Position numbers and translations under genes: made by a program. From an uncultured Clostridia bacterium (GTDB lineage Bacteria > Bacillota > Clostridia > Christensenellales > Aristaeellaceae), in contig CAKULG010000001.1 of the NCBI GenBank assembly GCA_934667105.1, forward strand, positions 19,224 through 83,223: a stretch of 64,000 bases of DNA. The letters run 5' to 3'. Each line of letters starts with the position of its first letter. The stretch's first letter is position 1. The notes beneath the pieces are model-generated. The model was not told where the DNA came from and did no database searches. It was given only the letters and a program-made list of their open reading frames with translations. Below, piece after piece: positions 9,435 to 61,466 of this stretch.

Positions 9435-9478
9435 GCGGGGGGAACCGCTCCTTGGCCTCCAAGGAATGCCTCCCCCGC
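9435..9478 (+). repeat. intergenic hairpin repeat, family copy 1 (hairpin only, imperfect)
   Basis: AATAAT-GCGGGGGGAACCGCTCCTTGG-CCT-CCAAGGAATGCCTCCCCCGC-ATATTAT, directly after the HMA gene. It has the same GCGGG...CTTGG/CCAAG...CCCGC architecture as the other copies. Confidence 0.7.
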
Positions 9479-9500
9479 ATATTATAATTCTCCATAAAGA

Positions 9501-9528
9501 GAGAGCCGCCGTTTGCACGGCGGCTCTC
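9501..9528. terminator. GC-rich hairpin between convergent genes (probable bidirectional terminator)
   Basis: GAGAGCCGCCG-TTTGCA-CGGCGGCTCTC is a perfect 11-bp stem. It lies 17 nt from the stop of the minus-strand SBP gene. Confidence 0.6.
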
Positions 9529-9544
9529 CTGAATTTTGCGTGGA

Positions 9545-11176
9545 TTACTTGCCGAAGTAATAGGCTTCGTGCAGCTCCAGCAGGCGGGACAGGCCCAGAT
9601 TTTCCATTTCGGTCTTGTAGGCTTCCCAAGCGGCGTCGTCATTGATATCGCGCTTGCCGATGATGAATTCGGTCACGGCGGCGATCATGGCGTCGCCCAC
9701 AGCGGTGTTCAGCTCAGCGCGCTCGTCGATGAGATCCTGATCGGTGCACCAGCTGATCTGGGGGAACTTGGTAACGGTGGCAAAGGGCGCGTACACGCGA
9801 TGCGCGTTGATGGCCAGCAGCTGGCTATCGGTGGCGGCGTCGGAAGCGGCCTTGCTGTTATAGTCTTCCAGGGTACGATAGGTGTTGGGGCCCCAGCCCT
9901 GGGGCAGGTATTCGTTGTGGGTGGAGCCATACTGCCAGATCATCTTGACGGACTTGTCGCCGCCGCCGAAGGAGGGCTCGTCGCTCCAGACCCAGTGCTT
10001 GCCTTCCTGGCCGTAGAAGTTGCTCCAGGAGCGGCCTTCTTCGCTGTAGAAGTAATCCAGCCAGCGAATGGCGACGATGGGATCCTTGCAGGAGGAGGTG
10101 ATGAAGGTGCGCAGGCTGATGACGTTATCCTGAGAAGCATAGCAGCCCTTGACGCCCTTGGGGCCGGTGAGGGGCTCGATGCACTCATAATCGGTGAAGG
10201 TAACGTAGGAAGGATCGGCGTTGTAGGTCAGCAGGCGATAGGGATAAGGAGCGGCGGCCGCGCCAACGGTGACGTTGGTCTTGGGCACGCTGGTCAGCTG
10301 ACGGAACTGGAACAGATCCTGCACGTAGGTTTCTTCAACCAGCAGCTTTTCCTTATACAGATCGTTGATGTACTGGAGGCCTTCGCGGAAATCGTCGGAC
10401 AGGGCCACGCAGGTCACGTTGCCGTCGTCGTCCGCCAGCATGTAGGGCAGGGGATTGCCCGCGGGGCACAGGGTGAAGGCGTTCATGAGGAAGGTATGGG
10501 GATCGGCGCCCTCTCTCCAGTACTGATAGTTACCGGTCAGGGGGATTTCGTCGGTGTTGTCGCCGTTGCCGTTCATATCGTTGTCACGGAAATAGATCAG
10601 CATATCCTTGAATTCTTCGGTGGTGGCGGGAGTGCCCTTGCCGGTGGCGGTCTTATAGGCTTCCAGCCATTCCTTGTACACCCACATCTTCGGGATGGAT
10701 TCCTGCACGTTGTAGATCAGCTGGGGCAGCTCATAGATATGGCCGTCGGGAGCGGTGATCTGCTCGCGCACGCCGGGGTTGTCTTCCAGCGCCTTGACGA
10801 TGTTGGGGGCGTACTGGTCGATCAGGTCTTCCAGGGGAATGATCACTTTGTCTTCCGCGTACAGCAGCGCGTCGTCGGTGCTCAGCCACTGCAAGTAGAT
10901 GTCGCAGCGATTGTTATCCGCCATGGAGGTGTTGAACTTCTCGGAGGCTTCGGAGGAGTTCGCGGTGGTCCAATTGATATGGACGTTGGTCTTCTCTTCC
11001 ACGGTGACGACTTCGTAGTTGGTGGGGTAGTCTTCAACGGTGGCCAGCTGGGGGCACCAAACGCTCAGTTCCACTTTTTCGGTGGAGATGGGGTATTCGC
11101 CGGGCTGGGTCAGTTCCGCGATACCGCAGGAGCAAACCATGCACAGCAGCAATACCAGGGCAACCAGTTTCTTCAT
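9545..11176 (-). CDS. ABC transporter extracellular solute-binding lipoprotein (large sugar-type SBP)
   Basis: The signal peptide MKKLVALVLLLCMVCSCG contains lipobox-like Cys residues. Size and composition fit the large LplA-like sugar SBPs. Start at ATG 11176 behind AGGAGGAACA. It is the last gene of a permease-permease-SBP operon. Confidence 0.85.
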   Translation of the reverse strand: MKKLVALVLLLCMVCSCGIAELTQPGEYPISTEKVELSVWCPQLATVEDYPTNYEVVTVEEKTNVHINWTTANSSEASEKFNTSMADNNRCDIYLQWLSTDDALLYAEDKVIIPLEDLIDQYAPNIVKALEDNPGVREQITAPDGHIYELPQLIYNVQESIPKMWVYKEWLEAYKTATGKGTPATTEEFKDMLIYFRDNDMNGNGDNTDEIPLTGNYQYWREGADPHTFLMNAFTLCPAGNPLPYMLADDDGNVTCVALSDDFREGLQYINDLYKEKLLVEETYVQDLFQFRQLTSVPKTNVTVGAAAAPYPYRLLTYNADPSYVTFTDYECIEPLTGPKGVKGCYASQDNVISLRTFITSSCKDPIVAIRWLDYFYSEEGRSWSNFYGQEGKHWVWSDEPSFGGGDKSVKMIWQYGSTHNEYLPQGWGPNTYRTLEDYNSKAASDAATDSQLLAINAHRVYAPFATVTKFPQISWCTDQDLIDERAELNTAVGDAMIAAVTEFIIGKRDINDDAAWEAYKTEMENLGLSRLLELHEAYYFGK

Positions 11177-11251
11177 AGGATGTTCCTCCTTCAAGAATAT
11201 ATCTCTATGCGAAAAGGCTTTCGCATAAAAGATTCGGGAATTGGGGGCTGA

Positions 11252-12187
11252 TCAGCCCTTCACGGCGCCGATCATCACGCCCTTGACGAAATACTTCTGC
11301 ACGAAGGGATACAGGCACATCACCGGCAGCGAGGAAACGATAATCAGGGAATAGCGCATCACCTCCGCGCGCTTTTCCATGAGGGCCTGGGTGGTGGAAT
11401 CCAGGGTCACGTTGCTTTCCATGGAAAGGCTCTGGCTTTGCACCAGCAGCTCGCGCAGCACGTTGGCCAGGGGCAGCTTGCTCTTATCGGAGATATAGAG
11501 CAGCGCGCCGTAATAGGAATTCCACAGATCCACGGCGTAATACAGGCCGATGACCGCCAGGATGGGGCCGGAGAGGGGCAGCACGATTTGCAGCAGGAAG
11601 CGCCATTCGCCGCAGCCGTCGATCTGGGCCGCCTCGCGCATTTCATCGGGAATGCTGGTGTTGAAGTAGGTGCGCATCACGATCATGTTGTACACCGACA
11701 GGGAGCCGGGCAGAATCAGGGCCCAGATGGTGTTGAGCATGTTGTAATTGCGGATGGTGAGGTAGGTGGGGATCATGCCGCCGGAGAAGTACATGGTGAA
11801 GATGCACAGCGCCATGACCACCTTGCCGTTTTTAAAGGTTCTGCGGGAGAGGGGATAGGCGCACAGGATGGTGACCACCAGGGCCACCGCCGTGCCCGTG
11901 ACCATATAGAGCAGGGAGTTGGCATAACCGCTCCAGACGGTTTTTTGCTCGAATACGGCGTTGTAGCCTTCCATGGTGACGCGGGCGGGAATGAGGGAAA
12001 GGCCGCCGCCCGTCATCACGCCGCCGGAGAAGGAGGCGGAGAAAACGTAGAGCAGGGGATAGAGAACGATGATGAAGAACGCGAACAGCGCCAGGGTGAC
12101 GAAGGTGAGAAACACATAGTCGGATTTCATCAGCTTGATCGCCGAGTTCTTTTTCTTTTTGCCGGTTTTACGATCGATGGTGCTCAT
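11252..12187 (-). CDS. carbohydrate ABC transporter permease (MalG/LplC-like)
   Basis: 311 aa, about 6 TM segments, with the EAA loop EAAQIDGCGEWRFLLQIVLPLSGP. GGGAGGA RBS. Confidence 0.85.
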   Translation of the reverse strand: MSTIDRKTGKKKKNSAIKLMKSDYVFLTFVTLALFAFFIIVLYPLLYVFSASFSGGVMTGGGLSLIPARVTMEGYNAVFEQKTVWSGYANSLLYMVTGTAVALVVTILCAYPLSRRTFKNGKVVMALCIFTMYFSGGMIPTYLTIRNYNMLNTIWALILPGSLSVYNMIVMRTYFNTSIPDEMREAAQIDGCGEWRFLLQIVLPLSGPILAVIGLYYAVDLWNSYYGALLYISDKSKLPLANVLRELLVQSQSLSMESNVTLDSTTQALMEKRAEVMRYSLIIVSSLPVMCLYPFVQKYFVKGVMIGAVKG

Positions 12188-12207
12188 GCTTGCGTTTCCT
12201 CCCTTCC

Positions 12208-13209
12208 TCAGAACAGCGAGCTGCCGCTCAGCTTGCCCGTAACTTTGTTGACCAGCACCAGCATCACCATGTTAAACAGCGATTGGAACAGGCCGATGGC
12301 CGCGGAATAGGAATACCGGGGACGGCCGGAGGCGATGCCCACTTTGTAAACGTAGGTGGCGATCACTTCGGAAACGCCGCTGTTTAAGTTGTTTTGCAGC
12401 AGCAGCACTTTTTCGAAGCCGATGTTCAGCAGGCTGCCGCAGCGCATAATCAGCAGGATGCAGAAGGTGGGCAGCACGCCGGGGATATCCACATGCCAGA
12501 TGCGCTTGACGATGCTGGCGCCGTCCACGATGGCGGCCTCGTGCAGCTCGGGGGAGACGGAGGCCAGGGAGGCGATGTAGATGATGGCGCCGTAGCCCAA
12601 CTCCTGCCACACGCCGGACCAGACGTAGATGCTGTAGAAATACTCGGACTGGGCCATGTAGTTGGTGGGGGGCACGCCCAGATAGCCCAGCGCCACGTTG
12701 ATGATGCCGCCGCGGGCGTTGAGGAACTGGAGAATCAGCGTGCACATAACGACGGTGGAAATGAAGTGGGGCGCGTAGCTGACCATCTGCACCGTTTTGC
12801 GGAAGCGCTTAAAGGGAACGTAATTCAGCAGCAGCGCGAAAATCAGCGAAAGCGGGAACGTGGCCAGAGAATAGAGATTGATGAGCAGCGTGTTGCGCAG
12901 AATCTGCCAGAACTGAGGCGCGTCGAAAAACTGCTTCACATACTTGAAGCCCACCCAGTCGCAATCCTCGATGGCGCGGGTGATGCGGAAATTGCGGAAC
13001 GCGATCTGCACGCCGTACATGGGCACGTACCGGAAGGCGATCAGCACCGCTACGGGCAGCAGCAGCATGATATATAGCGCGCCGTGCCGGGCGATTTCGT
13101 TTTTAAAGGCGGTGGAGAATTTTTTCCGCGGGGCGTGGGAAATTGCTTTGGTTGACACCTGGCTCTCATCCTCTCTGACGAAAATCGATTCATCACTTTC
13201 AACAATCAT
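12208..13209 (-). CDS. carbohydrate ABC transporter permease (MalF/LplB-like)
   Basis: EAA loop EAAIVDGASIVKRIWHVDIPGVLP. The start is uncertain: ATG 13209 has no obvious RBS, and an in-frame GTG at 13158 follows GAGGATGAGAG. Confidence 0.8.
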   Translation of the reverse strand: MIVESDESIFVREDESQVSTKAISHAPRKKFSTAFKNEIARHGALYIMLLLPVAVLIAFRYVPMYGVQIAFRNFRITRAIEDCDWVGFKYVKQFFDAPQFWQILRNTLLINLYSLATFPLSLIFALLLNYVPFKRFRKTVQMVSYAPHFISTVVMCTLILQFLNARGGIINVALGYLGVPPTNYMAQSEYFYSIYVWSGVWQELGYGAIIYIASLASVSPELHEAAIVDGASIVKRIWHVDIPGVLPTFCILLIMRCGSLLNIGFEKVLLLQNNLNSGVSEVIATYVYKVGIASGRPRYSYSAAIGLFQSLFNMVMLVLVNKVTGKLSGSSLF

Positions 13210-13444
13210 TGAATCTTAACGCGACTTATTATAGCACGCATAATTGCATAAAGCAAATACTTTTATCTACAAAAATATTAAAATTTTTATTCGTTTTCCA
13301 CTTTTTGAAAATGTAAATGTATTTTCCAGAGCCGAAAAATACATGCGGGGGGGGGGGGTGTCCGATGGGAGAATTGTGTTGGATTTTTGCAAAATAAATC
13401 GAAAAATGCTGAAAAAGAAAACGTTTGGAAAAATCGATCAAATT

Positions 13445-13625
13445 CCCCGTAAGCAGTTTTTCCCCTTCCCCAAACGGCTTTCTCGGAAGGTATGGGAGGA
13501 AATTTTTGCTTTTATATGTTCGCGGGGAGGCTGGCTGAGTTCTTATTACCTGAATTTACCCAATCGGCTTTCTCGGAAGGGCGCGGGGGAACCGCTCTTT
13601 GGCCTCCAAAGAGCGGTTCCCCCGC
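13445..13625 (-). repeat. intergenic hairpin-plus-module repeat, composite copy 2
   Basis: Hairpin at 13583-13625 lies immediately after the stop of the LarA-like gene. The module CCTTCCGAGAAAGCCGATTGGG (reverse complement of 13559-13580) is followed by a second hairpin-less module copy (13468-13490). Confidence 0.8.
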
Positions 13626-13635
13626 ATATTTATAT

Positions 13636-16270: not shown

Positions 16271-16283
16271 ATGCAAGGATGAA

Positions 16284-22252: not shown

Positions 22253-22283
22253 GGGGGAATGCGCCAAAGAGCGATTCCCCCGC
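22253..22283 (-). repeat. intergenic hairpin repeat, truncated copy 3
   Basis: The reverse complement reads GCGGGGGAATCGCTCTTTGGCGCATTCCCCC, preceded by ATAT, directly after the SDR gene stop. An unrelated-looking hairpin GAATCCCCC...GGGGGATTC (22203-22245) lies next to it. Confidence 0.55.
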
Positions 22284-22297
22284 ATATATTTTCTCTC

Positions 22298-23974: not shown

Positions 23975-24018
23975 GCGGGGGATTATTCTTTGGGCGGCGC
24001 TCCAAAGAATACCTCCGC
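23975..24018 (-). repeat. intergenic hairpin repeat, copy 4 (hairpin only)
   Basis: The reverse complement reads GCGGAGGTATTCTTTGG-AGCGCCGCC-CAAAGAATAATCCCCCGC. It sits 13 nt after the rarA stop, with an AT-rich lead-in. Confidence 0.7.
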
Positions 24019-27861: not shown

Positions 27862-27974
27862 TTGTCCCCGCTTGTCCCCATTTTTTGTCCCCAGTGGGGA
27901 CGAGCGAAAAGGTTTGTCCCCATTTTGTCCCCAATCGCCCGATATTTTTTTGTCCCCAGTGATTTTTGCCCCCA
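27862..27974. repeat. cluster of TTGTCCCC motifs (6 direct, 1 inverted, 1 degenerate)
   Basis: TTGTCCCC occurs at 27862, 27872, 27885, 27914, 27925 and 27950. An inverted GGGGAC lies at 27896-27901 and a degenerate TTTGCCCCC at 27966-27974. All sit in a convergent intergenic region. Confidence 0.85.
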
Positions 27975-32533: not shown

Positions 32534-32778
32534 GCGGGGGAACCGCTCTTTGGAGGCCAAAGAGCGGTTCCCCCGCACCCCTTCTGAGAAAGCCGATTGG
32601 GTAGGAGAGGGCGGCAGGAAAACGGCTGATTTCTCCGCTGGCAGAGCGTGCGGAGGGTTGCGGAGCGGTTTCCCCGCACCCCTTCCGAGAAAGCCGATTG
32701 GGTAGGAGAGGGCGGCAGGAAAACGGCTGATTTCTCCGCTGGCAGAGCGTGCGGAGGGTTGCGGAGCGGTTTCTCCGC
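32534..32778 (+). repeat. intergenic hairpin-plus-module repeat, copy 5, with a 101-bp tandem duplication
   Basis: The hairpin at 32534-32576 is followed by two 101-nt units (32577-32677 and 32678-32778). By my reading the units differ at two positions. Each unit carries GAGAAAGCCGATTGGG ... CGGCTGATTTCTCCGC and a degenerate hairpin. Confidence 0.9.
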
Positions 32779-32990
32779 GCAAGCGCTTCATATCGTTTAT
32801 GGGCAGCCCCTTCGCCAACCGGAGGCGGCTGCTCGGAACGTCCCCGCAAAGGGGGCGATTTTCTTATTTTCCTACGAAAAACGGCTGTTATTTTCTTGTC
32901 TTTTTCGTTTTCGCTTGTTATTTTTCCCGGGCCATGCTATGATAATTCCAGCCATACGAATTTGAAAAATAGAAAGAGAGGGGTTGTCCG

Positions 32991-35355: not shown

Positions 35356-35398
35356 GCGGGGGAACCATTCCTTGAAGGTCAAAGAACGGTTCCCCCGC
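35356..35398 (+). repeat. intergenic hairpin repeat, copy 6 (terminator-like)
   Basis: GCGGGGGAACCATTCCTTGAAGGTCAAAGAACGGTTCCCCCGC starts 14 nt after the rhamnosidase stop and is followed by T-rich sequence. Confidence 0.8.
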
Positions 35399-35520
35399 AA
35401 TACTTTGTTTTCGTTTTTTTACAGCCCCTTGTTTAGAGGGGTAAAAAGCGTTTTTGCAGCCTGGATACGCTAGAACGGGGCGGCTTCTCTTGTTTGCTAT
35501 TCTTCCAATTTTCTATGCAT

Positions 35521-35733
35521 GTGGAGAAGCAAGCTGATTTCTTAAAACGCTCCTTCTTCCCCGATCGGCTTTCTTGGGAGAGTGCGGGGGGGAAAAAAAT
35601 CGTTCAGGTGAGCGCCGTTCCCTTATGTTAGCGGAGAAGCAAGCCGAACTCTTAAAACACTCCTTTTTCCCAATCGGTTTTCTTGGGAGGGCGCGGGAGG
35701 AGGTTCTTTGGCCTCCAAAGAACCCCCTCCCGC
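35521..35733 (-). repeat. intergenic hairpin-plus-module repeat, copy 7 (two units, about 110-bp period)
   Basis: Hairpin at 35693-35733 directly after the parB stop. The modules CCCAAGAAAACCGATTGGG and GCTTGCTTCTCCGC occur twice. In the distal unit the hairpin is decayed to GCGGGGGGGAAAAAAA. Confidence 0.8.
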
Positions 35734-36614: not shown

Positions 36615-36651
36615 TGATTTTCCACCTCTGCCCCTCTAAAAAAACGTTTTC

Positions 36652-37416: not shown

Positions 37417-37444
37417 TATAAGCCCCTTCTTTATGCTTTTGCGT

Positions 37445-37924: not shown

Positions 37925-38199
37925 GCGCCTCCCCTCCCTCTCCTTCCAAAGATACCACACAATGGCTGAATTGTCCAGCGTTCCGGGGCAGAAAAACGGG
38001 GGAAATCCCGCCTGTTTTTCCCTGCGCGGGGGCACGCGGCCGGACGGGTAAAAGAAATTTTTTGTTATTTTTTGTAAGCTGCGTTTATAAATATTCACAT
38101 TTACTCGTAATGTGAATAATTATGCATTGCATTTTCCGCCCGCCGTCCATCCCTTGTGGTGTCCTTCCGGTGGGGGCACAATTCCTGGCCCTGGAAAAG

Positions 38200-38208
38200 T
38201 TATCAACA
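38200..38208 (+). promoter_or_regulatory. DnaA box (1 mismatch)
   Basis: TTATCAACA versus the consensus TTATCCACA. Confidence 0.55.
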
Positions 38209-38311
38209 GCACATAGCCATGCACGCGGGGAAAATGCGAAATTCTCCCAGAAAACCCTTGAAATAATCGAAAAAATCTGGTATGATAAGGCCGTGGTTCG
38301 GATAAACGCAG

Positions 38312-38334
38312 TTATCCACAAAAAGTTATCCACA
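38312..38334 (+). promoter_or_regulatory. two tandem perfect DnaA boxes
   Basis: TTATCCACA at 38312-38320 and again at 38326-38334, separated by AAAAG. Confidence 0.85.
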
Positions 38335-38441
38335 GCCCGCGCAAGGAAAGCCCTGGCCGGGTATTATTTTTTCACTGTTCTCCCTTCCACAGAAAGCAAA
38401 TAAACATGCAAACGAATGCATAGAAAGCGGAGCGAGGTACA

Positions 38442-39764: not shown

Positions 39765-39785
39765 AAGAACGTTTTCTCCTGCTCC

Positions 39786-39995
39786 CCTCTAAGAGAGCCG
39801 GTTAGGCGAATCGGGACGGCGGGAAAGCGGCTTGCTTCTCCGCCAAGGCAGGGATACGCAAGCGTAATTTTGAATAGGTCTTTTCGTTTGCCTTGCGGAG
39901 AAGCAAGATTCCTTTATGACGCTGCATTTATCCATACCGCTTTCTTGAGGAAGCGCGAGGGAGCCTTCTTTGGCCGCCAAAGGAGGCTCCCTCGC
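39786..39995. repeat. two family copies in opposite orientation (copy 8), downstream of dnaA
   Basis: A plus-oriented hairpin-less unit (CTCTAAGAGAGCCGGTTAGG ... GGCTTGCTTCTCCGCC) faces a minus-oriented complete unit (GCGGAGAAGCAAG ... CCGCTTTCTTGAGGAA plus hairpin 39955-39995). Confidence 0.75.
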
Positions 39996-40281
39996 TTATT
40001 ATTTTCTCGTTTTTTCGCCCTCGCCTCATAGCTTTTTGTTGGAGGCGCGTAGCATAATTTGCCGGGAGAGAGGCGAAAAACAAGGAAAATCAAGGGGTTC
40101 AAATATTACTACACCTTGAAACAGAAAGGGAAACTTGTCATGGAAGAAACGGCTATGCTATGCTGATCTCGTTCCAGGAGGAAGCGAAACGGCCCGCCGG
40201 GCAAGGCAAGGCGAAGGGCGTTTTCCCACTTCTCCCGTTTCCCGCCGCGCAAGCGGCAAACACGCCGAAGGAGGTTTTTCC

Positions 40282-41864: not shown

Positions 41865-42070
41865 GCGGGAGGAGGTTCTTTGTTGGCCAAAGAACCTCCT
41901 CCCGCACCCTCCCAAGAAAGCCGCTTGGGGAGGAGAGGGGGAGGGAAAAATCCGCTTGCTTCTCCCCGGGCAGGTATGGGAGCACTTGTTGGAGCCGCGC
42001 GCTCAAGAAAGCCGATTGGAGAAGAGAAGAAAGTAAGAAGAAAATCATTTGCTTCTCCCCGGGCAGGCAG
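41865..42070 (+). repeat. intergenic hairpin-plus-module repeat, copy 9 (one full and one hairpin-less unit)
   Basis: The hairpin GCGGGAGGAGGTTCTTTGTTGGCCAAAGAACCTCCTCCCGC (41865-41905) lies 24 nt after the SBP stop. It is followed by CCCAAGAAAGCCGCTTGGGG ... GCTTGCTTCTCCCC, and then by a second CAAGAAAGCCGATTGG ... TTTGCTTCTCCCC. Confidence 0.8.
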
Positions 42071-42415
42071 GGGGAGCGCTTGTCGGAACGATCCTCCGGC
42101 GAAGACTGAACGGGTATATAAAAGCAGAATAAAGGAATCGGCGTATTTCATCGTCGAAACAAGCGAAATCCTTTTATTGGATGCAGGGGCGCGCGGGCAA
42201 ACCGCGTTTTTATATAGGAAGAAAGCGCGGGGGAGCGCGCGCCCGTCGCAGGGAAGGGGAAGGGCCTTTTCCTGTGAAACATCCGTGAAACAGGCCAAAT
42301 ACGGCCTGAATGTAGCATTTTTTCAAAGGAAATGTAGCATATTTTGCTTTTGAACGGGAAATTTCCGCCCTGCGCGGCCACAAATCATGCTACCCCTTTC
42401 GCCGGATAAAGAAAC

Positions 42416-42617: not shown

Positions 42618-43574
42618 ATGCAAAACGCCCCGGCCCGGACGCTGCCGCGCAATGATCGCCAGCGCCGCCGTCATCTGATCCTCAAGCAGATGAAGGCCAA
42701 TTACTTCCTCTATATTTTCCTGCTTCCCGCCACGGTGTATCTGGCCCTGTTCGCCTATTGGCCGCTGTACGGCATTCAGATCGCCTTCAAGGATTTCTTC
42801 GCCTTCAAGGGCATCGAGGGCAGCCCCTGGGTGGGCCTGAAGCATTTCCGGAATTTCTTCAATTCCCCCCGCTTTTCCATGCTGCTGAGCAACACGCTGA
42901 CCATCAGCTTCTACAGCCTGCTGGCGGGCTTCCCCATGCCCATCATCCTGGCGCTGCTGCTGAATTACACCCCCAAGCAGGGCCTCAAGCGCTTCGCGCA
43001 GACGGCCTCCTACGCCCCGCATTTCATCTCCATCGTGGTGCTGGCGGGCATGCTGAACGTGTTCCTTTCTCCCCGCAGCGGCTTTATCAACACGCTGCTG
43101 GGCTATCTGGGCCGGGATCCGTTCTTCTTTATGGGCTCGCCCTCCGCGTTTAAGCATGTGTACGTCTGGTCCGGCGTGTGGCAGAGCACGGGCTGGTCCT
43201 CCATCATTTATCTGGCCGCCCTCTCCGGCGTGAGCCCCGAGCTGCACGAGGCCGCCATCATCGACGGCGCGAACAAATTGCAGCGCATCTGGAATATCGA
43301 TATTCCCACCATCATGCCCACCATGGTGATCCTGCTGGTGATGAACTTCGGCTCCATTATGAACGTGGGCTATGAAAAGGCCTTCCTGCTGCAAAACAGC
43401 CTGAACATGACCGCCTCCGAAATCATTTCCACCTATACCTACAAGGTGGGCCTGCAGGACTCGCAGTACAGCTATTCCACCGCCATCGGCCTGTTCAACA
43501 ATGTGATTAACTTTGTGATGCTGGTGTTGGTGAACAAGGCCGCCAAGGTGCTCTCGGGCAGCAGCCTGTGGTGA
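42618..43574 (+). CDS. carbohydrate ABC transporter permease (MalF/LplB-like)
   Basis: EAA loop EAAIIDGANKLQRIWNIDIPTIMP. Paralog of the 12208-13209 gene. Start at ATG 42618 behind GAAGGGAAGGAA; the ORF-track start at 42387 is rejected. Confidence 0.85.
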   Translation: MQNAPARTLPRNDRQRRRHLILKQMKANYFLYIFLLPATVYLALFAYWPLYGIQIAFKDFFAFKGIEGSPWVGLKHFRNFFNSPRFSMLLSNTLTISFYSLLAGFPMPIILALLLNYTPKQGLKRFAQTASYAPHFISIVVLAGMLNVFLSPRSGFINTLLGYLGRDPFFFMGSPSAFKHVYVWSGVWQSTGWSSIIYLAALSGVSPELHEAAIIDGANKLQRIWNIDIPTIMPTMVILLVMNFGSIMNVGYEKAFLLQNSLNMTASEIISTYTYKVGLQDSQYSYSTAIGLFNNVINFVMLVLVNKAAKVLSGSSLW

Positions 43575-43592
43575 GGAAGGAGAAGGACGAAC

Positions 43593-44516
43593 ATGAGCAT
43601 TTCGGGCGTTAAGCACAGCAAAAAAATCCATGAAACCCGGGTGGACCGGGTGTTCAACGGGGTCGTATACTTCCTGATTATCCTGCTGCTGATTATCTTC
43701 ATTTATCCGCTGTGGTTCGTGCTGATGGCCTCGGTGAGCGATCCCGCCTACGTCAATTCCGGCACGCCGCTGCTCTGGCCGATGGGCTTTACCACCATGG
43801 GCTATAACCGGGTGTTCGCGGATAACCGCATCTGGATCGGCTATGCCAACACCATCCTCTACGCGGGCCTGGGCATGGTGGTGTCCACCATGGTGCAGGT
43901 GATGGCGGGCTATTCCCTCTCCCGCCGCGATCTGCCCGGCCGGAGCATCTTCATGGGCCTGTTCGTGTTCACCATGTATTTCGGCGGCGGCCTGATCCCC
44001 TTCTATCTGGTGGTGAAGCAGCTGAACCTGGTGAACAGCAGGATTCTGATGATTATCCTGGGTTGCTCCTCGGTGTATAACATCATTATCGCCCGCTCCT
44101 TCTTCACAAGTTCCCTGCCGGTGGAATTGTACGAGGCGGCCTCCATCGACGGCTGCACCAATCAGCGCTATTTCTTCTCCATCGTGCTGCCCCTGTCCAA
44201 GGCCATCATCGCGGTGATCGCGCTGTACGCCCTGGTGGCGCAATGGAACTCCTATTTCAACGCCATGATCTTCCTCACCGACCGGAACAAGTATCCCCTG
44301 CAATTGTATCTGCGGGAGATTCTGCTGGCCGCCAAGACCTACGAGGACGTCTCCATGGTGGGCGGCGATGTGGAGGCGGCCGCCCAGATGGAGAAGATGG
44401 GCGAGGTCATCAAATACGGCGTCATCGTGGTTTCCACGCTGCCGGTGATCGTGGTGTATCCCTTCCTGCAAAAGTATTTCGTTCAGGGCGTGATGATCGG
44501 CTCCCTCAAGGGCTGA
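43593..44516 (+). CDS. carbohydrate ABC transporter permease (MalG/LplC-like)
   Basis: EAA loop EAASIDGCTNQRYFFSIVLPLSKA. Paralog of the 11252-12187 gene. Confidence 0.88.
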   Translation: MSISGVKHSKKIHETRVDRVFNGVVYFLIILLLIIFIYPLWFVLMASVSDPAYVNSGTPLLWPMGFTTMGYNRVFADNRIWIGYANTILYAGLGMVVSTMVQVMAGYSLSRRDLPGRSIFMGLFVFTMYFGGGLIPFYLVVKQLNLVNSRILMIILGCSSVYNIIIARSFFTSSLPVELYEAASIDGCTNQRYFFSIVLPLSKAIIAVIALYALVAQWNSYFNAMIFLTDRNKYPLQLYLREILLAAKTYEDVSMVGGDVEAAAQMEKMGEVIKYGVIVVSTLPVIVVYPFLQKYFVQGVMIGSLKG

Positions 44517-44579
44517 CGCGCCCCCAGGCGTCGATATTCGCCGCGGACGCGGTGAAAATAAAAAAGGAGGAAACCCCGA

Positions 44580-46139
44580 ATGAAGAAGCTTATTTCCCTG
44601 TTCCTGGTTGCGGTGTTGGCGCTGAGCCTGGCCGCGATCCCCAACGTGCTGGCCGAGGATTACGAATTCACCATCGTCGTGCAGCGCCATGCCCTGGATA
44701 AGAGCGACGGCTACGCCACCAAGCCCGGCGCCATCCTGGCGGAAAAGAACACCGGCATCAAGATTTACTACGACGAGTTGGAAGCCAGCACCGTGAACGA
44801 TAAGGTGGGTATCTATCTGGCCACCGGCGCGCTGCCCGACGCCTTCATCAACACCGTCAGCCAGAATCAGCTCACCCGCAACCTGCCCCTCTTCGTCGCC
44901 CTGGACGAATACCTCACCGAGGAAAATTGCCCCCATGTGATGGATATCTTCGAGCAGTATCCCAACGTGAAGGAAAACCTCACCCAGACCGACGGCCACA
45001 TCTACTCCCTGCCCACTTCCATGTATGTGAGCCCCGAGGATGACGGCAACTCCATCCAGTTCATCAACAAGGCCTGGCTGGATAAGCTGAACCTGGAAAT
45101 GCCCAAGACCACCGAGGAATTCTACAACGTCTGCAAGGCCGTCAAGGAAGGCGATCCCAACGGCAACGGCCAGGCGGATGAAATCCCCGTGCTGTTCACC
45201 CAGAATAACTGGGCGGCCCACTTCATGTTCTTCATGCATCCCTGGGGCATCACCGAGCTGGTGAACGGCGGCGACGGCTATCTGGCCATCAAGGACAACC
45301 AGGTCGTCTTCACCCCCACCCTGCCCGAATTCCGCGCCGGCCTGGAATATTGGCATCGCTTCGCGGTGGAAGGCCTGCTGGATGTGGAGGGCTTCACCAT
45401 GACCAACCAGCAGTTCTACGCCCGCCTGAAGGAATATGTGGGCCTGACCTACCGCGGCTGGACCCCCGCTTCCAACTTCGATTCTGAAAAGGCCAAGGAA
45501 TTCGTGGCGCTGGAGCCCCTCCAGGCCTCCGATTATCCCGAAATCAAGCCCGTGCAGCCCGGCTATGACGGCTACTATCGCGCCAACAGCTACGGCTTCG
45601 CCATCACCGCCGCCTGCAAGGATCCCGCCAAGCTGGTGCAGTGGTACGATGCGCAGAACGCCGATACCAGGACCAAGATGACCTGGCGCCTGGGCGAGGA
45701 AGGCATCCTGTGGGAGCTGCAGGACGGCGTGGTTTACGAGCTGTGGCCGGAATCCGTCACCGTGGACTTCACTCGTGAAAACATGAAGTACACCTACGGC
45801 TCCTACGGCAACGCCCCCGCCTTCACCCTGCCCACCGAAGTGGCCCAGTATCATGACGACGCGCCCGCCGACGCCACCGTGCGCCGCAAGCTGGTAGAGG
45901 TTGTGAAGCCCTATATCCAGAACGTCATGTTCCCCCAGCGCCCTGTGGACAGCGCCAAGCTGGAAGAGCGCAACATGATCTATACCGACCTGAAGGCCTA
46001 TCTGGATTCCTTCGTGGCGGATTGCGTGGTCAACGGCATCGACGACGCCAAGTGGGAAAAGCACCTGAAGGATTGCCAGGGCTACCGGGCCGAGGAATGG
46101 ACCCAGTGGTATCAGGATTACCTGGACGGCAAATTCTAA
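44580..46139 (+). CDS. ABC transporter extracellular solute-binding protein (paralog 2)
   Basis: 519 aa. AAGGAGGAAACCCCGA RBS. Same length as the 40282-41841 product and collinear with it. Confidence 0.9.
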   Translation: MKKLISLFLVAVLALSLAAIPNVLAEDYEFTIVVQRHALDKSDGYATKPGAILAEKNTGIKIYYDELEASTVNDKVGIYLATGALPDAFINTVSQNQLTRNLPLFVALDEYLTEENCPHVMDIFEQYPNVKENLTQTDGHIYSLPTSMYVSPEDDGNSIQFINKAWLDKLNLEMPKTTEEFYNVCKAVKEGDPNGNGQADEIPVLFTQNNWAAHFMFFMHPWGITELVNGGDGYLAIKDNQVVFTPTLPEFRAGLEYWHRFAVEGLLDVEGFTMTNQQFYARLKEYVGLTYRGWTPASNFDSEKAKEFVALEPLQASDYPEIKPVQPGYDGYYRANSYGFAITAACKDPAKLVQWYDAQNADTRTKMTWRLGEEGILWELQDGVVYELWPESVTVDFTRENMKYTYGSYGNAPAFTLPTEVAQYHDDAPADATVRRKLVEVVKPYIQNVMFPQRPVDSAKLEERNMIYTDLKAYLDSFVADCVVNGIDDAKWEKHLKDCQGYRAEEWTQWYQDYLDGKF

Positions 46140-48577: not shown

Positions 48578-48620
48578 GCGGGGGAACCGCTCTTTGTTGG
48601 ACAAAGAACGGTTCCCCCGC
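48578..48620 (+). repeat. intergenic hairpin repeat, copy 10 (bidirectional terminator position)
   Basis: GCGGGGGAACCGCTCTTTGTTGGACAAAGAACGGTTCCCCCGC lies between the convergent AraC and C69 peptidase genes. A T-rich run follows on the plus strand. Confidence 0.85.
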
Positions 48621-48640
48621 AAATATTTTGTTTTTGTTTT

Positions 48641-50191
48641 TTATTTAATGGCGTTGACCAGCTCCATGCAGGCGGCGTGAACCTTCGCGGCCAGGGCGCT
48701 GCTGGCGGCGGTGGCGGCTTCAGGGGTGAGGGCGTCGGCGTCCAGCTGGGCGAAGGCGTCGTAGCATTCCGTCTGGAGGGCGGCCAGCTTATCGGCGACG
48801 GCGGTTTTTTGCTCGTCTGTCAGGTTTCCGGCCTCATACAGGTTAGAAAGCGCGTCCATCGTCCAATAGACGGAATTGGCCCAATTGGCGGGCAGCGCGC
48901 AATAGCCTTCCACGGGCACGCGCTCGCCGTTTTCATCCCGTTGATATTTGGTGGTGGCGTAGGCCACGGCGTTTTCGGGCTTTTCGGCGGCGAATTCAGC
49001 GGGCAGCGTGCTCAGTTTATAGCCAGCGTAGGTATCCGTGGTCAGCATGGGGTAATAGGGCACGAACACGCTCAGCGCCGCGTCGTCCATGGCCACCCAC
49101 TCCACGGTGCCGGTGGGGCCGTCCTTCCCGGAGAGAACGAAAATGTGGGTTTCCAGGTTACGGGTGGAGCCGATACCGGCGATGTGATAATATTTCACCA
49201 CGTCGTCCACCGTGTAGGCGTGATCCAGGGTGATAGCGGTGTACAGCGGCACGATATCGCCCTGGGCGTTCACGTTGGAAATCGTATAATCGGATACGGC
49301 GGGCTCTTCCTTGGCAGTTTCGGCGTTAAAGAATTTGAGCGCGTTCACCATGCGGCTTCCGGCGGTCTGATCGGCGTTATAGGAGGCCACATAGTCGATG
49401 GTGTTGGCTTCCTTATCGCCCACATACGCGCCGGCCTGCTCGGCCACGGCGATAAGATTTTTGGAAGCGATAACGTTTTTCGTATCGTCCAGATCAATCA
49501 GGCCGATAATGGACATATTCGGCTGGGCGAAGGCCATAGAGGAGGAAAGCTTCAGCGCCACATACTGGGTGCCGGAGGCGTTTTCGATATACCAGGTTTC
49601 CTGGCTGTCGGCGATGAATACGCCCGAGCCGCCCGCGCAGCCCGCCGTGTCGTAGATGTTCAGCAGCAGCGTAACGGCCTCCTTCGCCGTTGCGGCCTCG
49701 CTGAGCAGCACGGTGGGAATTTCGGCTTCCTCGATGCCGGTATCCACATAGGGATCCACGGCGTAAATCGCGTCGGAGCAGCCGATGGTTTCGGTGGCGC
49801 TGACGGTCACGCCCATTTCGTTGGTGCCGCCCGCCTCATAGGGGGTGTGGGGGTGCGTGCCGCCGCAATCCGGGCATTCGTTGCCCACCGCCGCGCCGTT
49901 ATCGTCGCTGAAGGCGGTGTAGCTGTAGCTGGGTTTGGTGAAGGTGTAGGTGAAGCCGTAGCAGCCGGCGTATTCTTCACCGGCGGCGTGGTTCCCGGCG
50001 GGGCTTACATAAAACAGCTTGTTATAGCTGTTGGAAATATCCTCGGAACGGGCGAACATCGTAGTTCCGTCCGCAGTCAGGTCGGAGCCGACGTAAATCG
50101 CCGTGCACGCCATGGCGCTGACGGAGGACAGACACAGAATCAGAGCGGCCATCAGGGATACCAGCATTTTTAATTTCTTCGAGTTCAGCAT
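48641..50191 (-). CDS. secreted C69 family dipeptidase
   Basis: The signal peptide ends in SAMA, followed by the nucleophile Cys in CTAIYVGSDLTADGTTMFARSEDI. Start at ATG 50191 behind AAAAGGAGGA. Confidence 0.82.
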   Translation of the reverse strand: MLNSKKLKMLVSLMAALILCLSSVSAMACTAIYVGSDLTADGTTMFARSEDISNSYNKLFYVSPAGNHAAGEEYAGCYGFTYTFTKPSYSYTAFSDDNGAAVGNECPDCGGTHPHTPYEAGGTNEMGVTVSATETIGCSDAIYAVDPYVDTGIEEAEIPTVLLSEAATAKEAVTLLLNIYDTAGCAGGSGVFIADSQETWYIENASGTQYVALKLSSSMAFAQPNMSIIGLIDLDDTKNVIASKNLIAVAEQAGAYVGDKEANTIDYVASYNADQTAGSRMVNALKFFNAETAKEEPAVSDYTISNVNAQGDIVPLYTAITLDHAYTVDDVVKYYHIAGIGSTRNLETHIFVLSGKDGPTGTVEWVAMDDAALSVFVPYYPMLTTDTYAGYKLSTLPAEFAAEKPENAVAYATTKYQRDENGERVPVEGYCALPANWANSVYWTMDALSNLYEAGNLTDEQKTAVADKLAALQTECYDAFAQLDADALTPEAATAASSALAAKVHAACMELVNAIK

Positions 50192-56425: not shown

Positions 56426-56601
56426 GAACGGGATAGCATTATACGGGTGAGGGATTCTTTGGGGGCATTTCGCCCCGCGCTTCCGCTTTGATGAGTAGCG
56501 CGGGGCGTAAAAAATGAAGGACTGGCCGCCCTTCATTGCATCCAGCAAGTTTGCTCGATACTTTTTTGACAGTCTGAGCCGCCCTAAAAAGCGGCGCTCA
56601 T

Positions 56602-56690
56602 CAGAATACCTCTCCCGCACCTTCTTTAAGAAAGCCGATCAGGAACGGGCAGGTATCGGGAAATTGGCCTGCTTCTCTGCTGACGGAAGG
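56602..56690 (+). repeat. degenerate family copy 11
   Basis: Only the right arm of the hairpin remains (CAGAATACCTCTCCCGC; compare copy 12). It is followed by ACCTTCTTTAAGAAAGCCGATCAGG ... GCCTGCTTCTCTGC. Confidence 0.5.
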
Positions 56691-56794: not shown

Positions 56795-56884
56795 ATTATA
56801 GGGTTCCGGCCGGGGGGGGGCGACTGCATCCCGGCCTGGGGAAATATGCGTTTGTTTGCGCCAGAAAGCAAGGAGAAGCCAGGC

Positions 56885-59695
<2,811 letters not shown>

Positions 59696-59791
59696 GGAAT
59701 GGGGAGGAGCCGGCAGAGGGAAAGAAACCTTTTTGCGGCAATCCGCCCCGCGCTGTTCCGCCAAATAAATCGGAATTTGCAGGTGTGATTG

Positions 59792-60235
59792 ATGAGAATT
59801 GTAGAAGTTACAGAGAACAAAAAACAATATCTTGATTTGCTCCTGTTGGCGGATGAGCAGGAAGATATGGTTGACCGTTATCTCTATAATGGTAAAATGT
59901 ATGTTCTTGATGATGACGGAGTGAAATGCGAGTGTGTCGTAACGGACGAAGGGAATGGAATACTTGAAATTAAGAATATCGCTACAGTTCCCCCATTTCA
60001 GCGAAAAGGCTATGCCAAAGCACTGATTGAATTTCTTGTTGAAAAATACCGCAGACAATTTTCGATACTGCAAGTGGGAACCGGCGACAGCCCGTTGACG
60101 ATACCCTTTTATGAAAAATGTGGCTTTGTACGCTCGCATACCGTGCCAAATTTCTTTACGGATCATTATGATCACCCGATATATGAGTGTGGTGTACACC
60201 TTGTAGATATGGTGTATTTGCAAAGACCTCTATAA
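59792..60235 (+). CDS. GNAT family N-acetyltransferase
   Basis: About 147 aa with the acetyl-CoA motif region VPPFQRKGYAKALIEFLV and FYEKCGF. Visibly lower GC than the flanking genes. Confidence 0.75.
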   Translation: MRIVEVTENKKQYLDLLLLADEQEDMVDRYLYNGKMYVLDDDGVKCECVVTDEGNGILEIKNIATVPPFQRKGYAKALIEFLVEKYRRQFSILQVGTGDSPLTIPFYEKCGFVRSHTVPNFFTDHYDHPIYECGVHLVDMVYLQRPL

Positions 60236-60297
60236 AACAAATTCCAGTTTGTCAAGCGATCGCCAGACCGCAATTTACAGGGAGAGGAAACGCCGCG

Positions 60298-60489
60298 CTT
60301 ACGATAAAGAAATTCGAGAAAGAGGACATTGAAAAGGTTCTGGCGTTTGAACGGGCCTTAAGGGCGGAATGCAAGGCCCAGGGGGTATTGATCGCGCTGA
60401 CGGCCAATAACGATGGGGCGCAGCGCTTTTATATGAATGTAAAGGATGCGTCTATCCATGACGCCGGAATCTGGATGGATATTAAATAA
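60298..60489 (+). pseudogene. possible GNAT acetyltransferase remnant
   Basis: LTIKKFEKEDIEKVLAFERALRAE resembles a GNAT N-terminus and GAQRFYMNV resembles the C-terminal RFYxxxGF motif. The core is missing, and no start codon follows the GGGAGAGGAAA RBS-like site. Confidence 0.35.
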
Positions 60490-60708
60490 GCGAAGCGGAC
60501 GAATAATGCCTCGCGGCGAAAAGCATGGCGGCATGCAGAAAACAGCCCGGGCGCGCAAATGCCCGGGCTGCTTCAAGCCGCTCAACGCTTTTTTAGGATG
60601 CGCGAAGGAGCGGCGAAAAAAACAAAAATAAAGAAATTGCAGGGAAACCCTTCTTTCGTAGTTCAAAGAACGGCTCCCCTGCAATTCTTAAGGGCTCGTC
60701 ATGCTCGC

Positions 60709-61050
60709 TTAGTGAATCACGTTGATGACGTGCAGCGGATCCACATACACAATGCGACCGTCGATAAAATGCTCTTCATATACGCATTCCACCGTGGCGC
60801 CGATCTGGCGGGCGTAAATGAGCACGGGCTTATTCACCGCCCAGGCGGAGGCCAGCAACCAGGCGACGTCGTCGTAGGGCGTGGCCTTGGCCACACGAAT
60901 CATCCAGGCGACCTTGGCGTTGGCGGAATCTACCATTTTATAGAGAAGCCGGTTTTTCTGCTCCTGGGAAATTTCACAGGCGGAAACAGAGAAGCAGGTG
61001 AGCGCGAGGATGAGCAGCAGCGCGGCCAGGAAACGAAGCGTTTTTTTCAT
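60709..61050 (-). CDS. small putative lipoprotein, function unknown
   Basis: 113 aa. The signal peptide MKKTLRFLAALLLILALTCFSVSAC contains a VSAC lipobox. No recognisable domain. Confidence 0.55.
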   Translation of the reverse strand: MKKTLRFLAALLLILALTCFSVSACEISQEQKNRLLYKMVDSANAKVAWMIRVAKATPYDDVAWLLASAWAVNKPVLIYARQIGATVECVYEEHFIDGRIVYVDPLHVINVIH

Positions 61051-61264
61051 GATGTCCTCCCCTTTTGTGCGAACACGTTTCGTCGTTCAATTTTGCGGCA
61101 TCTATTTTTTAATTGGAAAAATTCCGCATTTTTTCCATCAGCATCATACACGTTTTTTTCCGGATTGTCAATGCTAATTTTAAAGAAAAATACATATTTA
61201 AAAATATTTTTTCTTACTTTTGTAACTGTAATATAACATTTTTGACGCCTCGTTTTTTCTCGCC

Positions 61265-61466
61265 AGCGGAGAAGCAAGCCGCATTTTTTGCCCGTCCCTT
61301 CCTAATCGATCTTCTTAGGCGGGCGGGAACCGCACTTTCCTTTTTTCTTTTTCGGCAGAGAAGGAGCCGGTTTTTTTAACCGTCCCTTCCCAATCGGCTT
61401 TCTTAGAGAGGGTGCGGGGGAGGTATTCTGTTGGGGCGAAATGCCCCACAGAATACCTCCCCCCGC
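61265..61466 (-). repeat. intergenic hairpin-plus-module repeat, copy 12 (two units)
   Basis: The hairpin at 61414-61466 (GCGGGGGGAGGTATTCTGTGGGGCATTTCGCCCCAACAGAATACCTCCCCCGC on the minus strand) lies 26 nt after the mrp stop. The modules CTAAGAAAGCCGATTGGGAAGGGACGG and CTAAGAAGATCGATTAGGAAGGGACGG ... GGCTTGCTTCTCCGC follow. Confidence 0.8.

What the first reader, a model, noticed from the sequence alone, without database searches (positions are those of the whole stretch)
9435..61466. Abundant structured intergenic repeat family: hairpin plus second conserved module, at least 12 copies in 64 kb
Twelve intergenic regions carry the same architecture. The copies are at 9435, 13445, 22253, 23975, 32534, 35356, 35521, 39786, 41865, 48578, 56602 and 61265.

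The architecture is an AT-rich lead-in (AATAAT-like), then a long hairpin that always opens GCG(G/A)G and closes C(C/T)CGC. In most copies the hairpin carries CTTTGG / CCAAAG next to the loop.

The stem interiors differ between copies while keeping complementarity:
- GGGGAACCGCTCTTTGG / CCAAAGAGCGGTTCCCC
- GGAGGAGGTTCTTTG / CAAAGAACCTCCTCC
- AGGGAGCCTCCTTTGG / CCAAAGAAGGCTCCCT (one mismatch)
- GGGGAGGTATTCTGT / ACAGAATACCTCCCC

This looks like compensatory change, implying selection on structure. In 7 copies the hairpin is followed by (A/G)CCCT(C/T)CC(A/G)AGAAAGCCGATTGGG, a variable 25-40 nt, then GCTTGCTTCTCCGC. Here AGAAAGC and GCTT(G)CTTCT can pair into a second stem.

Where a coding gene lies upstream, the hairpin starts 10-30 nt after its stop codon and in that gene's orientation, so the element supplies or replaces the terminator. 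I do not recognise it as a named REP/BOX/MITE or Rfam family. No transposase or RAYT-like gene is in the window.
Basis: partly seen in the sequence, partly recalled or inferred. Interest (0 to 1): 0.75.

Follow-up and report, generated by a model that had tools for sequence, protein, structure and literature searches.

The report
Modular terminator-hairpin repeat family in gut Clostridia
The window carries a real, previously undescribed family of short intergenic repeats, a long hairpin with optional side modules, in an uncultured gut Clostridia bacterium; it resembles the SPRITE, BOX and REP repeat elements already known from other bacteria, so it is a new example of a familiar kind.

Summary
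The window has 13 family hairpins (H, 41-52 nt, 19-21 bp stems), one degenerate remnant and 13 copies of a ~70-nt second module (B). They lie in 13 of the 27 intergenic regions longer than 50 nt. I found a third module, T, a conserved ~27-nt U-rich tail.

All copies can be written rcB(0-3)-H-T. The hairpin stem is supported by covariation, including compensatory changes at the same locus in different strains.

In H-B copies the U-rich tail lies on the strand opposite the upstream gene. The claim that the element "supplies the gene's terminator" therefore holds only for H-T copies.

Among 10-11 strains of the same species no element is gained or lost. What varies is the number of 101-nt B units (1, 2 or 3), and at one site B plus a two-gene cassette is swapped for T. 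Repeat diversity matches that of ordinary intergenic DNA.

Nothing matches in Rfam, plasmids, phages or the literature, and no transposase lies within about 74 kb. Related copies occur only in a few gut and rumen Clostridia MAGs.

Best reading: a lineage-restricted, non-autonomous mosaic repeat built round a terminator-type hairpin. It is a new member of a known kind.

The parts
9435..9479 (.). Solo hairpin H, 26 nt after the stop of the HMA-domain gene (9205-9408). Its two arms come from different subfamilies, so the middle is mismatched.
13450..13625 (-). H (13583-13625), a full B (13517-13585) and a partial B (13450-13490). It starts 10 nt after the stop of the Lar_N gene at 13636.
22255..22285 (.). 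Degenerate H remnant: the 3' arm is intact and the 5' arm is internally deleted. It is the same in all strains.
23975..24018 (-). Imperfect solo H followed by TTTTTT on the - strand. Terminator geometry for the MgsA-family gene, whose stop is at 24031.
32534..32763 (+). H (32534-32576) plus two tandem 101-nt units. Each unit holds a 3'-arm fragment of H and a B (32575-32644, 32676-32745). Other strains have 1, 2 or 3 units.
35356..35426 (+). H (35356-35398) plus the U-rich T module (35399-35426), the terminator of the rhamnosidase gene. In 9 other strains T is replaced by B plus an HTH and zinc-ribbon gene cassette.
35516..35733 (-). H (35693-35733) plus two B modules (35626-35695, 35516-35586), downstream of parB, whose stop is at 35766.
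39781..39847 (+). B module preceded only by a degenerate short hairpin that overlaps the dnaA stop. It is the left half of an inverted doublet.
39893..40020 (-). B (39893-39957), H (39955-39995) and T (39996-40020, read on the + strand). It is the right half of the inverted doublet and is not downstream of a gene in its own orientation.
41865..42065 (+). H (41865-41905) plus B (41903-41972) plus a degenerate B (41996-42065), 23 nt after the stop of the solute-binding-protein gene.
48578..48645 (+). H plus T between convergent genes. It has A-rich and U-rich flanks, so it has bidirectional terminator geometry.
56602..56686 (+). 3'-arm fragment of H plus one B, 177 nt after the recD2 stop and behind an ordinary terminator hairpin (56468-56510).
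60613..60683 (-). Diverged H (60640-60683) plus T (60613-60639), the terminator of the 113-aa gene.
61261..61467 (-). Long H variant (61416-61467) plus two B modules (61351-61415, 61261-61327), downstream of the ParA-like gene. One strain has a single B.

Best explanation
This is a lineage-restricted family of non-autonomous, mosaic intergenic repeats.

Anatomy. The core is a 19-21 bp G+C-rich hairpin (H) flanked by U/A-rich tails (T). That gives a bidirectional, SPRITE-like terminator unit. On one fixed side of H, the side defined by the asymmetric AGG loop, T can be replaced by one to three copies of a ~70-101 nt module. That module has a conserved part next to H (B1), a purine-rich variable middle, and a conserved far end (B2).

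Shown:
- The copies are homologous rather than convergent.
- The stem is kept paired through compensatory change.
- B units expand and contract in tandem between strains.
- H is a breakpoint where flanking modules are exchanged.

Inferred:
- The family spread in the past by a trans-acting enzyme or by recombination that is not encoded nearby and is not visibly active now.
- H-T copies now act as intrinsic terminators.
- H-B copies act as stable 3'-UTR or intercistronic hairpins that block antisense read-in and 3' exonucleases.
- B is mostly a passenger.
For: Homology and modularity:
- B1, B2 and T are conserved in sequence between loci.
- The H loop keeps one orientation relative to B.

Structure:
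- The H helix has 19 pairs, 7 of them changed on both sides, and is 94.7% paired. None of 500 shuffles reached the observed score, and slid controls fell to 43-53% paired.
- Compensatory or stepwise changes occur at orthologous sites between strains. Examples are GGGTGAAC/GTTCACCC in L141, and CCCCC, CCACC and CTACC opposite a fixed GGTGG at a site just outside the window.
- H folds more stably on the strand where the U-rich tail follows at 11 independent sites against 2 (my sign test gives p about 0.02). That points to selection on a single strand, most simply RNA.

Dynamics:
- The 101-nt unit occurs 1, 2 or 3 times at 32534 and 1 or 2 times at 61416.
- At 35356, H-T alternates with H-B plus a cassette, with the junction exactly at the 3' end of H.
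- The hairpin at 9435 is a chimera of two subfamilies.

Weak constraint on B:
- Within-species diversity of B is 0.009-0.040. Other intergenic DNA gives 0.015-0.033 and coding sequence 0.005-0.016.
- B shows no excess folding.

Terminator geometry.

Distribution:
- The family is present in a few related 55-61% G+C Clostridia MAGs: L090, L094, L108, L129, L132, L161, L163.
- It is absent from the sampled 12-24 kb of four other relatives: L001, L135, L167, L170.

Published analogues: SPRITE and BOX (PMC3049150).
Against: - There is no direct evidence of mobility. No empty site was found, no target-site duplication, only a weak terminal inverted repeat (GCGGRGRARC, 7 of 10), and no transposase in about 74 kb.
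- All sites are fixed in all 10-11 strains.
- H plus B1 is 92-97% identical between this species and rumen MAGs that share no other DNA-level similarity in the loci held. That is more conservation than a decaying passenger should show, and it hints at a conserved trans-acting partner or a function for B1.
- Transcription and termination were not measured.
- The strand asymmetry rests on 13 informative sites.
- The genome-wide copy number is unknown.
Confidence: 0.6

Rival explanations
1. The unit read as rcB-H-T is a multicopy small-RNA or 3'-UTR-derived RNA family. It would have a body carrying a C/U-rich, anti-Shine-Dalgarno-like region (for example CCCUCUCCU or CUCCUUUUUCCC) and end in a strong intrinsic terminator, as in csRNA, LhrC or RsaE-type regulators of Firmicutes.
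For: - In this orientation every copy ends in a hairpin plus a U-rich tail.
- G.U wobbles favour this strand, 11 sites against 2.
- One B-stem position goes G-C, then G.U on this strand, then A-U between strains.
- The variable middle keeps its pyrimidine richness with CUCC/UCCC motifs although its sequence varies (read on the opposite strand).
Against: - No conserved promoter lies upstream of rcB. Internal units of the tandem arrays have none at all.
- The putative seed region is the least conserved part.
- B has no excess folding and no supported structure.
- B diversity within the species equals that of neutral intergenic DNA.
- Copy number of the unit varies freely between strains.
- In relatives B is truncated to B1 and sits in sense orientation just upstream of ribosome-binding sites inside pyr operons.
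Confidence: 0.12
2. H, alone or with B1, is a DNA-level recombination site. In this reading it is a hairpin or cruciform recognised by a recombinase or HUH enzyme, through which gene cassettes and flanking modules are exchanged, in the manner of integron attC sites or REP/RAYT.
For: - A two-gene cassette (HTH plus zinc-ribbon) flanked by [H B>] and [<B <B H] is present in 9 strains and absent in 2. The left junction lies exactly at the 3' end of H.
- In rumen MAGs a 153-aa gene inside the pyr operon is flanked by inverted H-B1 copies.
- Inverted doublets [H B> <B H] recur in three genomes.
- The hairpin at 9435 is a chimera.
Against: - No integrase, RAYT or other recombinase lies within about 74 kb.
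- The right junction of the cassette is at an unrelated terminator, not at a family hairpin.
- Another variable cassette nearby (59792-60235) is not bounded by H.
- In L161/L162 the same 153-aa gene is flanked by B1-like sequence without H.
- Orientation shows no relation to replication direction around dnaA, judged from the coordinates.
Confidence: 0.1
3. These are ordinary, independently evolved intrinsic terminators that merely look alike because of G+C-rich stems.
For: The position is right after stop codons, and H-T copies have hairpin plus U-tract geometry.
Against: - Loops, flanks, B1, B2 and T are conserved in sequence between loci and between genomes.
- Stems are 19-21 bp, against 5-12 bp for the other terminator-like hairpins in the window.
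- Covariance-model E-values go down to 2e-41.
- The orthologous sigma-factor gene in a relative has an unrelated ordinary terminator.
Confidence: 0.02

Closest known systems
[quoted passage not shown]
   Same: Both are interspersed repeats made of an unusually long duplex followed by a long U-rich tract. SPRITE has about 18 bp; here the duplex is 19-21 bp and T is about 27 nt with 50-67% T. Both are concentrated close to the 3' ends of coding sequences and are probably co-opted as terminators.
   Different: The host is different (about 60% G+C uncultured Clostridia). Sequence relatedness to SPRITE was not tested. Here the U-rich tail can be replaced on one side by a second, tandemly repeatable module, and many copies face the 'wrong' way for the adjacent gene.
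BOX elements of streptococci (boxA-boxB(n)-boxC; PMC3049150)
   Same: Both have a modular build with an internal module in a tandem array whose copy number differs between strains. Here it is 1, 2 or 3 units of 101 nt. Both are intergenic, and neither encodes its own transposase.
   Different: The end modules here are a perfect hairpin and a short conserved end (B2), not two mutually complementary boxes. The B unit carries a fragment of the hairpin arm. The family has no demonstrated effect on neighbouring genes.
REP / BIME / REPIN elements of Proteobacteria (RAYT-associated)
   Same: Both are extragenic palindromes in 3' UTRs and between cistrons. Both occur as singlets and inverted doublets, are combined with other short motifs into mosaics, and have stems kept paired by compensatory change.
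   Different: H is longer and nearly perfect. There is no GTAG-type flanking tetranucleotide, and no RAYT gene is seen in about 74 kb. The phylum is Bacillota.

Membership tests
Rfam families (any) | Match to a curated covariance model | tested here: not met
   No match at gathering score. At E up to 5 only two spurious eukaryotic or viral models overlap a copy.
Intrinsic (Rho-independent) terminator | G+C-rich hairpin directly followed by a U tract in the direction of the upstream gene | tested here: inconclusive
   Judged from the sequence, the feature is met at 23975, 35356, 48578 and 60640. The pattern scan's own rule flagged none of these on the gene's strand, and flagged only 35356 and 48578, on the opposite strand. 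Not met at 13583, 32534, 35693, 41865 and 61416: the U-rich tract is on the opposite strand (scan: 13583, 32534 and 41865; sequence: 35693 and 61416). Activity was not measured.
SPRITE-like terminator repeat | Interspersed repeat with a duplex of about 18 bp or more plus a long U-rich tract, enriched near the 3' ends of coding sequences | tested here: met
   Stems are 19-21 bp. The T module is conserved at 6 sites and is 50-67% T. Ten sites lie 10-32 nt after a stop codon.
SPRITE-like terminator repeat | Sequence homology to pneumococcal SPRITE | not tested
   No SPRITE model or sequence was at hand.
BOX-type modular repeat | Internal module in a tandem array with strain-variable copy number | tested here: met
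   One, two or three units at 32534 and one or two at 61416 among strains.
BOX-type modular repeat | Terminal modules that are complementary to each other (TIR-like) | tested here: inconclusive
   The B2 end GCGGAGAAGC matches the H arm GCGGGGGAAC at 7 of 10 positions, read.
MITE | Target-site duplication flanking the element | tested here: not met
   No direct repeats are seen at the outer flanks of the singlets or doublets.
MITE | Presence/absence (empty-site) polymorphism | tested here: not met
   All sites covered are occupied in all 10-11 strains. Relatives differ in gene context, so no clean empty site was available.
REP/RAYT | Conserved tetranucleotide (GTAG type) next to the palindrome | tested here: not met
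   The flanks are AATAAT-like on one side and CGC(A/G)CCC or AAATA on the other.
REP/RAYT | Cognate Y1 (IS200-like) RAYT gene in the genome, flanked by the repeats | not testable with these tools
   None in the window or the 10-kb extension. The rest of the genome is not available.
REP/RAYT | Hundreds of copies genome-wide | not testable with these tools
   Local density is 13 clusters in 64 kb, plus 2 more in the next 10 kb. No complete genome is held.
Integron attC | R''/R' core sites (GTTRRRY), extrahelical bases, and a neighbouring integron integrase | tested here: not met
   No such cores are seen in H. No integrase is present in the window. Genes are large, housekeeping and in mixed orientation.

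The most novel reading that the evidence does not exclude
H, together with the conserved B1 box, is the recognition site of an undiscovered trans-acting DNA enzyme in this clade of gut and rumen Clostridia. Through these hairpins, flanking modules and small gene cassettes are exchanged. That would make it a Gram-positive counterpart of REP/RAYT or of attC-type hairpin recombination. It would explain three things: the 92-97% conservation of H-B1 across species, the junction exactly at the 3' end of H, and the genes flanked by inverted H-B1 copies.
Probability: 0.1. Interest if true: 0.75.

Novelty: new member of a known kind. Interest (0 to 1): 0.42.

Why it matters
Interspersed hairpin repeats shape transcription boundaries, mRNA stability and genome rearrangement, and they fragment short-read assemblies. 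Almost all characterised families come from cultured Proteobacteria and streptococci.

This family occupies about a fifth of the intergenic DNA in a 64-kb stretch around the replication origin of an uncultured human-gut Clostridia species. It shows strain-level copy-number variation that could serve as a typing marker.

It also offers a natural series for studying how terminator hairpins evolve: the same hairpin with a U-tail, with B, or inside operons. If a cognate enzyme exists, it would be a new hairpin-recognising system in Bacillota.

Tried and rejected
- Rfam at gathering and at permissive thresholds: nothing.
- blastn of an H-B unit against PLSDB plasmids and INPHARED phages: no match.
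- A 15-mer scan of viral contigs: 82 single chance matches, none real.
- Scans of GTDB species representatives and JGI metagenomes with a 23-nt degenerate B1 pattern: 21 and 26 stretches. Only L090 and L094 (genomes) and L108 and L129 (metagenomes) were real. Both scans are capped, so the hairpin pattern itself could not be scanned.
- A consistent promoter upstream of rcB: not found.
- Contig ends as a proxy for repeat copy number: the breaks were at a poly-C tract and at strain differences, not at the repeats.
- A relation to replication strand around dnaA: orientations are mixed.
- A tRNA-like or PyrR-binding-site resemblance of B1: considered and dropped, with no tRNA and no Rfam PyrR hit.
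- The 153-aa gene flanked by H-B1 in rumen MAGs as a possible transposase: only a weak Peptidase_M78/HExxH match and no homologue in the window.
- A search of full-text literature and of 200 supplementary files of a gut structured-RNA catalogue for the repeat sequences: nothing relevant.

Full report
**What is there.**
The window is 59.8% G+C. It comes from a Bacillota chromosome: it encodes PolC, GroEL, sporulation sigma factors, DnaA and ParAB.

Hairpin H has 19-21 bp arms with the consensus GCGGGGGAACCGCTCTTTGG-AGG-CCAAAGAGCGGTTCCCCCGC.
- H is present at 9435, 13583, 23975, 32534, 35356, 35693, 39955, 41865, 48578, 60640 and 61416.
- An arm fragment lies at 56602, a degenerate short hairpin precedes the B at 39781, and a decayed remnant lies at 22255.

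Module B is about 70 nt and occurs 13 times. It has three parts:
- B1, CGC(A/G)CCCYTYC(A/G)AGAAAGCCGATTGGG, next to H;
- a purine-rich variable middle of 20-30 nt;
- B2, CGGCTTGCTTCTCCGCTG(A/G)CA, at the far end.

Extra B copies are tandem. Each is preceded by a fragment of the 3' arm of H, which gives a 101-nt unit at 32562-32763.

T is about 27 nt, AAATAYTTTGTTTTCGTTTTTTTAC. It is conserved between 35399, 48621, 39996, 60639 (- strand) and two sites just beyond the window.

The family covers 1,642 nt. It sits in 13 of the 27 intergenic regions longer than 50 nt and never in coding sequence (gene models). A 23-nt B1 pattern matches 6 times against 0 in shuffles.

**Architecture.**
The loop of H is asymmetric, and B always follows the strand that carries AGG. 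T-like tracts can lie on either side of H. The simplest description is a symmetric core, rcT-H-T, in which B replaces T on one defined side. Equivalently, every copy reads rcB(0-3)-H-T.

In H-B copies the remaining AT-rich side abuts the stop codon of the upstream gene. From that gene's direction the hairpin is therefore preceded by an A-rich tract and followed by ACCCCTTCC, with no U tract.
- The pattern scan flags 13583, 32534 and 41865 only on the opposite strand.
- Small ordinary terminators lie beyond the B arrays at 32839-32857 and 42191-42207.
- At 23975, 35356, 48578 and 60640 a T-rich tract follows H in the adjacent gene's direction, which is terminator geometry; the scan's own rule, which needs the T run to start within 2 nt of the stem, did not flag these on that strand.

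Inverted doublets [H B> <B H] fill the intergenic region between co-directional genes at 39781-39995, in L108 and in L132.

**Structure tests.**
I aligned 12 non-redundant H-B units and counted pairs.
- The H helix has 19 pairs and is 94.7% paired.
- Seven pairs have changes on both sides.
- None of 500 shuffles reached the observed covariation score.
- Sliding the 3' partners drops pairing to 43-53%.

It has one compensatory case and is 78% paired in its inner helix. B folds no better than dinucleotide shuffles on either strand, with z-scores from -2.2 to +1.75.

**Same-species strains.**
An exact-protein look-up returned syntenic contigs from 10-11 strains for window positions about 21.7-42.5 kb and 51.5-72 kb.
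- Every element is present in every strain, so there are no empty sites.
- The 101-nt unit occurs 1, 2 or 3 times at 32534, and one strain has one B instead of two at 61416.
- At 35356 the window and one other strain have H-T. Nine strains have H-B followed by an HTH gene and a zinc-ribbon gene. The two forms diverge exactly at the 3' end of H.
- Paired positions change together at orthologous sites. L141 has GGGTGAAC/GTTCACCC where the others have GGGGGAAC/GTTCCCCC. At a site 8 kb beyond the window a fixed GGTGG in the 5' arm faces CCCCC, CCACC or CTACC in different strains.
- Nucleotide diversity is 0.005-0.016 in coding sequence and 0.015-0.033 in other intergenic DNA. It is 0.004-0.061 in H and 0.009-0.040 in B.

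The repeats therefore evolve about as fast as unconstrained spacer DNA, except that H keeps its pairing.

**Which strand matters.**
I folded each H allele on both strands. The strand on which the U-rich tail follows is the more stable at 11 independent sites. The other strand is more stable at 2, and 5 sites are ties. My sign test gives p about 0.02.

Mismatches therefore tend to be G.U on that strand and A.C on the other. This argues for selection on a single strand, most simply an RNA terminator hairpin. A purely double-strand DNA constraint would not produce this bias. Orientation shows no relation to replication direction on either side of dnaA.

**Distribution.**
Nothing matches in Rfam, in plasmids or phages, or in the searchable literature.

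Pattern scans of 185,579 species-representative genomes and of JGI metagenomes found only four real loci.
- Three are from closely related 60% G+C rumen or gut Clostridiales MAGs (L090, L094, L129). There the pyr operon reads pyrF-[H B1>]-153-aa gene-[<B1 H]-pyrE.
- Their H-B1 is 92-97% identical to window copies, although nothing else in those loci aligns to the window.

Relatives with 84-89% identical PolC have either no copies in 24 kb (L001, L135) or a diverged doublet (L132).

Other relatives show H-B1 between carB and the next cistron, or H separated from B1 (L161, L163). In L161/L162 B1-like sequence flanks the 153-aa gene without H.

Inside operons the flanks are not U-rich. This fits selection against termination there.

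**Interpretation.**
The homology of loops, flanks and side modules rules out independent terminators. The weak constraint on B, its free copy-number change, the lack of a promoter and the lack of structure all argue against B being a regulatory RNA. That idea is not excluded, however.

The best-fitting picture is a dispersed, non-autonomous mosaic repeat of the SPRITE/BOX/REP kind.
- SPRITE is an 18-bp duplex plus a U-rich tract close to the 3' ends of coding sequences.
- BOX has a tandem internal module whose number varies between strains (PMC3049150).
- Stem-loop repeat families are common as a class (PMC2267715).

How the family spread is not shown. There is no target duplication, only a weak terminal inverted repeat, no transposase within about 74 kb, and no current insertion polymorphism. 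The variation seen today comes from tandem expansion and contraction and from recombination at H.

The strong cross-species conservation of H-B1, and the two cases of genes bracketed by inverted H-B copies, leave room for an unknown hairpin-recognising enzyme. I rate that at about 10%.

**Verdict.**
It is a new member of a known kind of element. It is of moderate interest.

Noticed in passing
window 35766-39764: parB, parA, a 159-aa gene and dnaA lie together. An AT-rich spacer (37925-38441) holds a 37-nt palindrome at 38087-38123. The window therefore most likely spans the chromosomal replication origin. dnaA is followed by a sugar-binding-protein gene rather than dnaN.
   Followed up: partly
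window 27862-27957: Six direct copies of TTGTCCCC lie within 96 nt, in the spacer between the FAD-oxidoreductase gene and the GGGtGRT-family gene. This looks like an array of binding sites. It gave a weak spurious hit to the repeat model (E 0.0013).
   Followed up: no
window 59792-60235: The GNAT acetyltransferase gene between uvrA and the 113-aa gene is replaced in other strains of the species. Some carry a cellulase plus a 66-aa gene, others a 169-aa gene plus an aspartic-protease-like gene. The replaced segment runs from the gene's stop to just past its start, not to a family hairpin.
   Followed up: partly
window 35399-35515, compared with L136 13576-14650: Nine of eleven strains carry an XRE-type HTH gene (71 aa) and a divergent zinc-ribbon membrane gene (173-198 aa), with a 40-nt palindromic operator between them. 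The window strain lacks both genes.
   Followed up: yes
window 56526-56567 (- strand) and the last 45 nt of L002: The 42-nt sequence CTGTCAAAAAAGTATCGA(G/A)CAAACTTGC(T/G)GGATGCAATGAAGG occurs once in the window. It recurs at a different locus, downstream of the 9435 hairpin, at the very end of a contig from another strain. It may be the end of a second repeat or insertion sequence.
   Followed up: partly
window 13347-13358: A homopolymer of 12 C on the - strand lies in the promoter-side spacer of the ABC-transporter operon. Two short-read contigs of other strains begin at the corresponding C run.
   Followed up: no
window 11242-12627 against 43161-44526, and 40282-40581 against 44580-44879: The window has paralogous sugar ABC-transporter operons. 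The permease genes are 72-74% identical in inverted orientation, and the two large solute-binding-protein genes are 82% identical over 300 nt. Both paralogous operons are bordered by family repeats.
   Followed up: no
L094 3344-3805 (also L090, L129, L161, L162): A conserved 153-aa HExxH protein, with a weak Peptidase_M78/IrrE match (E 4.6e-4), is inserted between pyrF and pyrE in several rumen and gut Clostridia MAGs. It is always bracketed by inverted B1 boxes, with or without the hairpin.
   Followed up: partly
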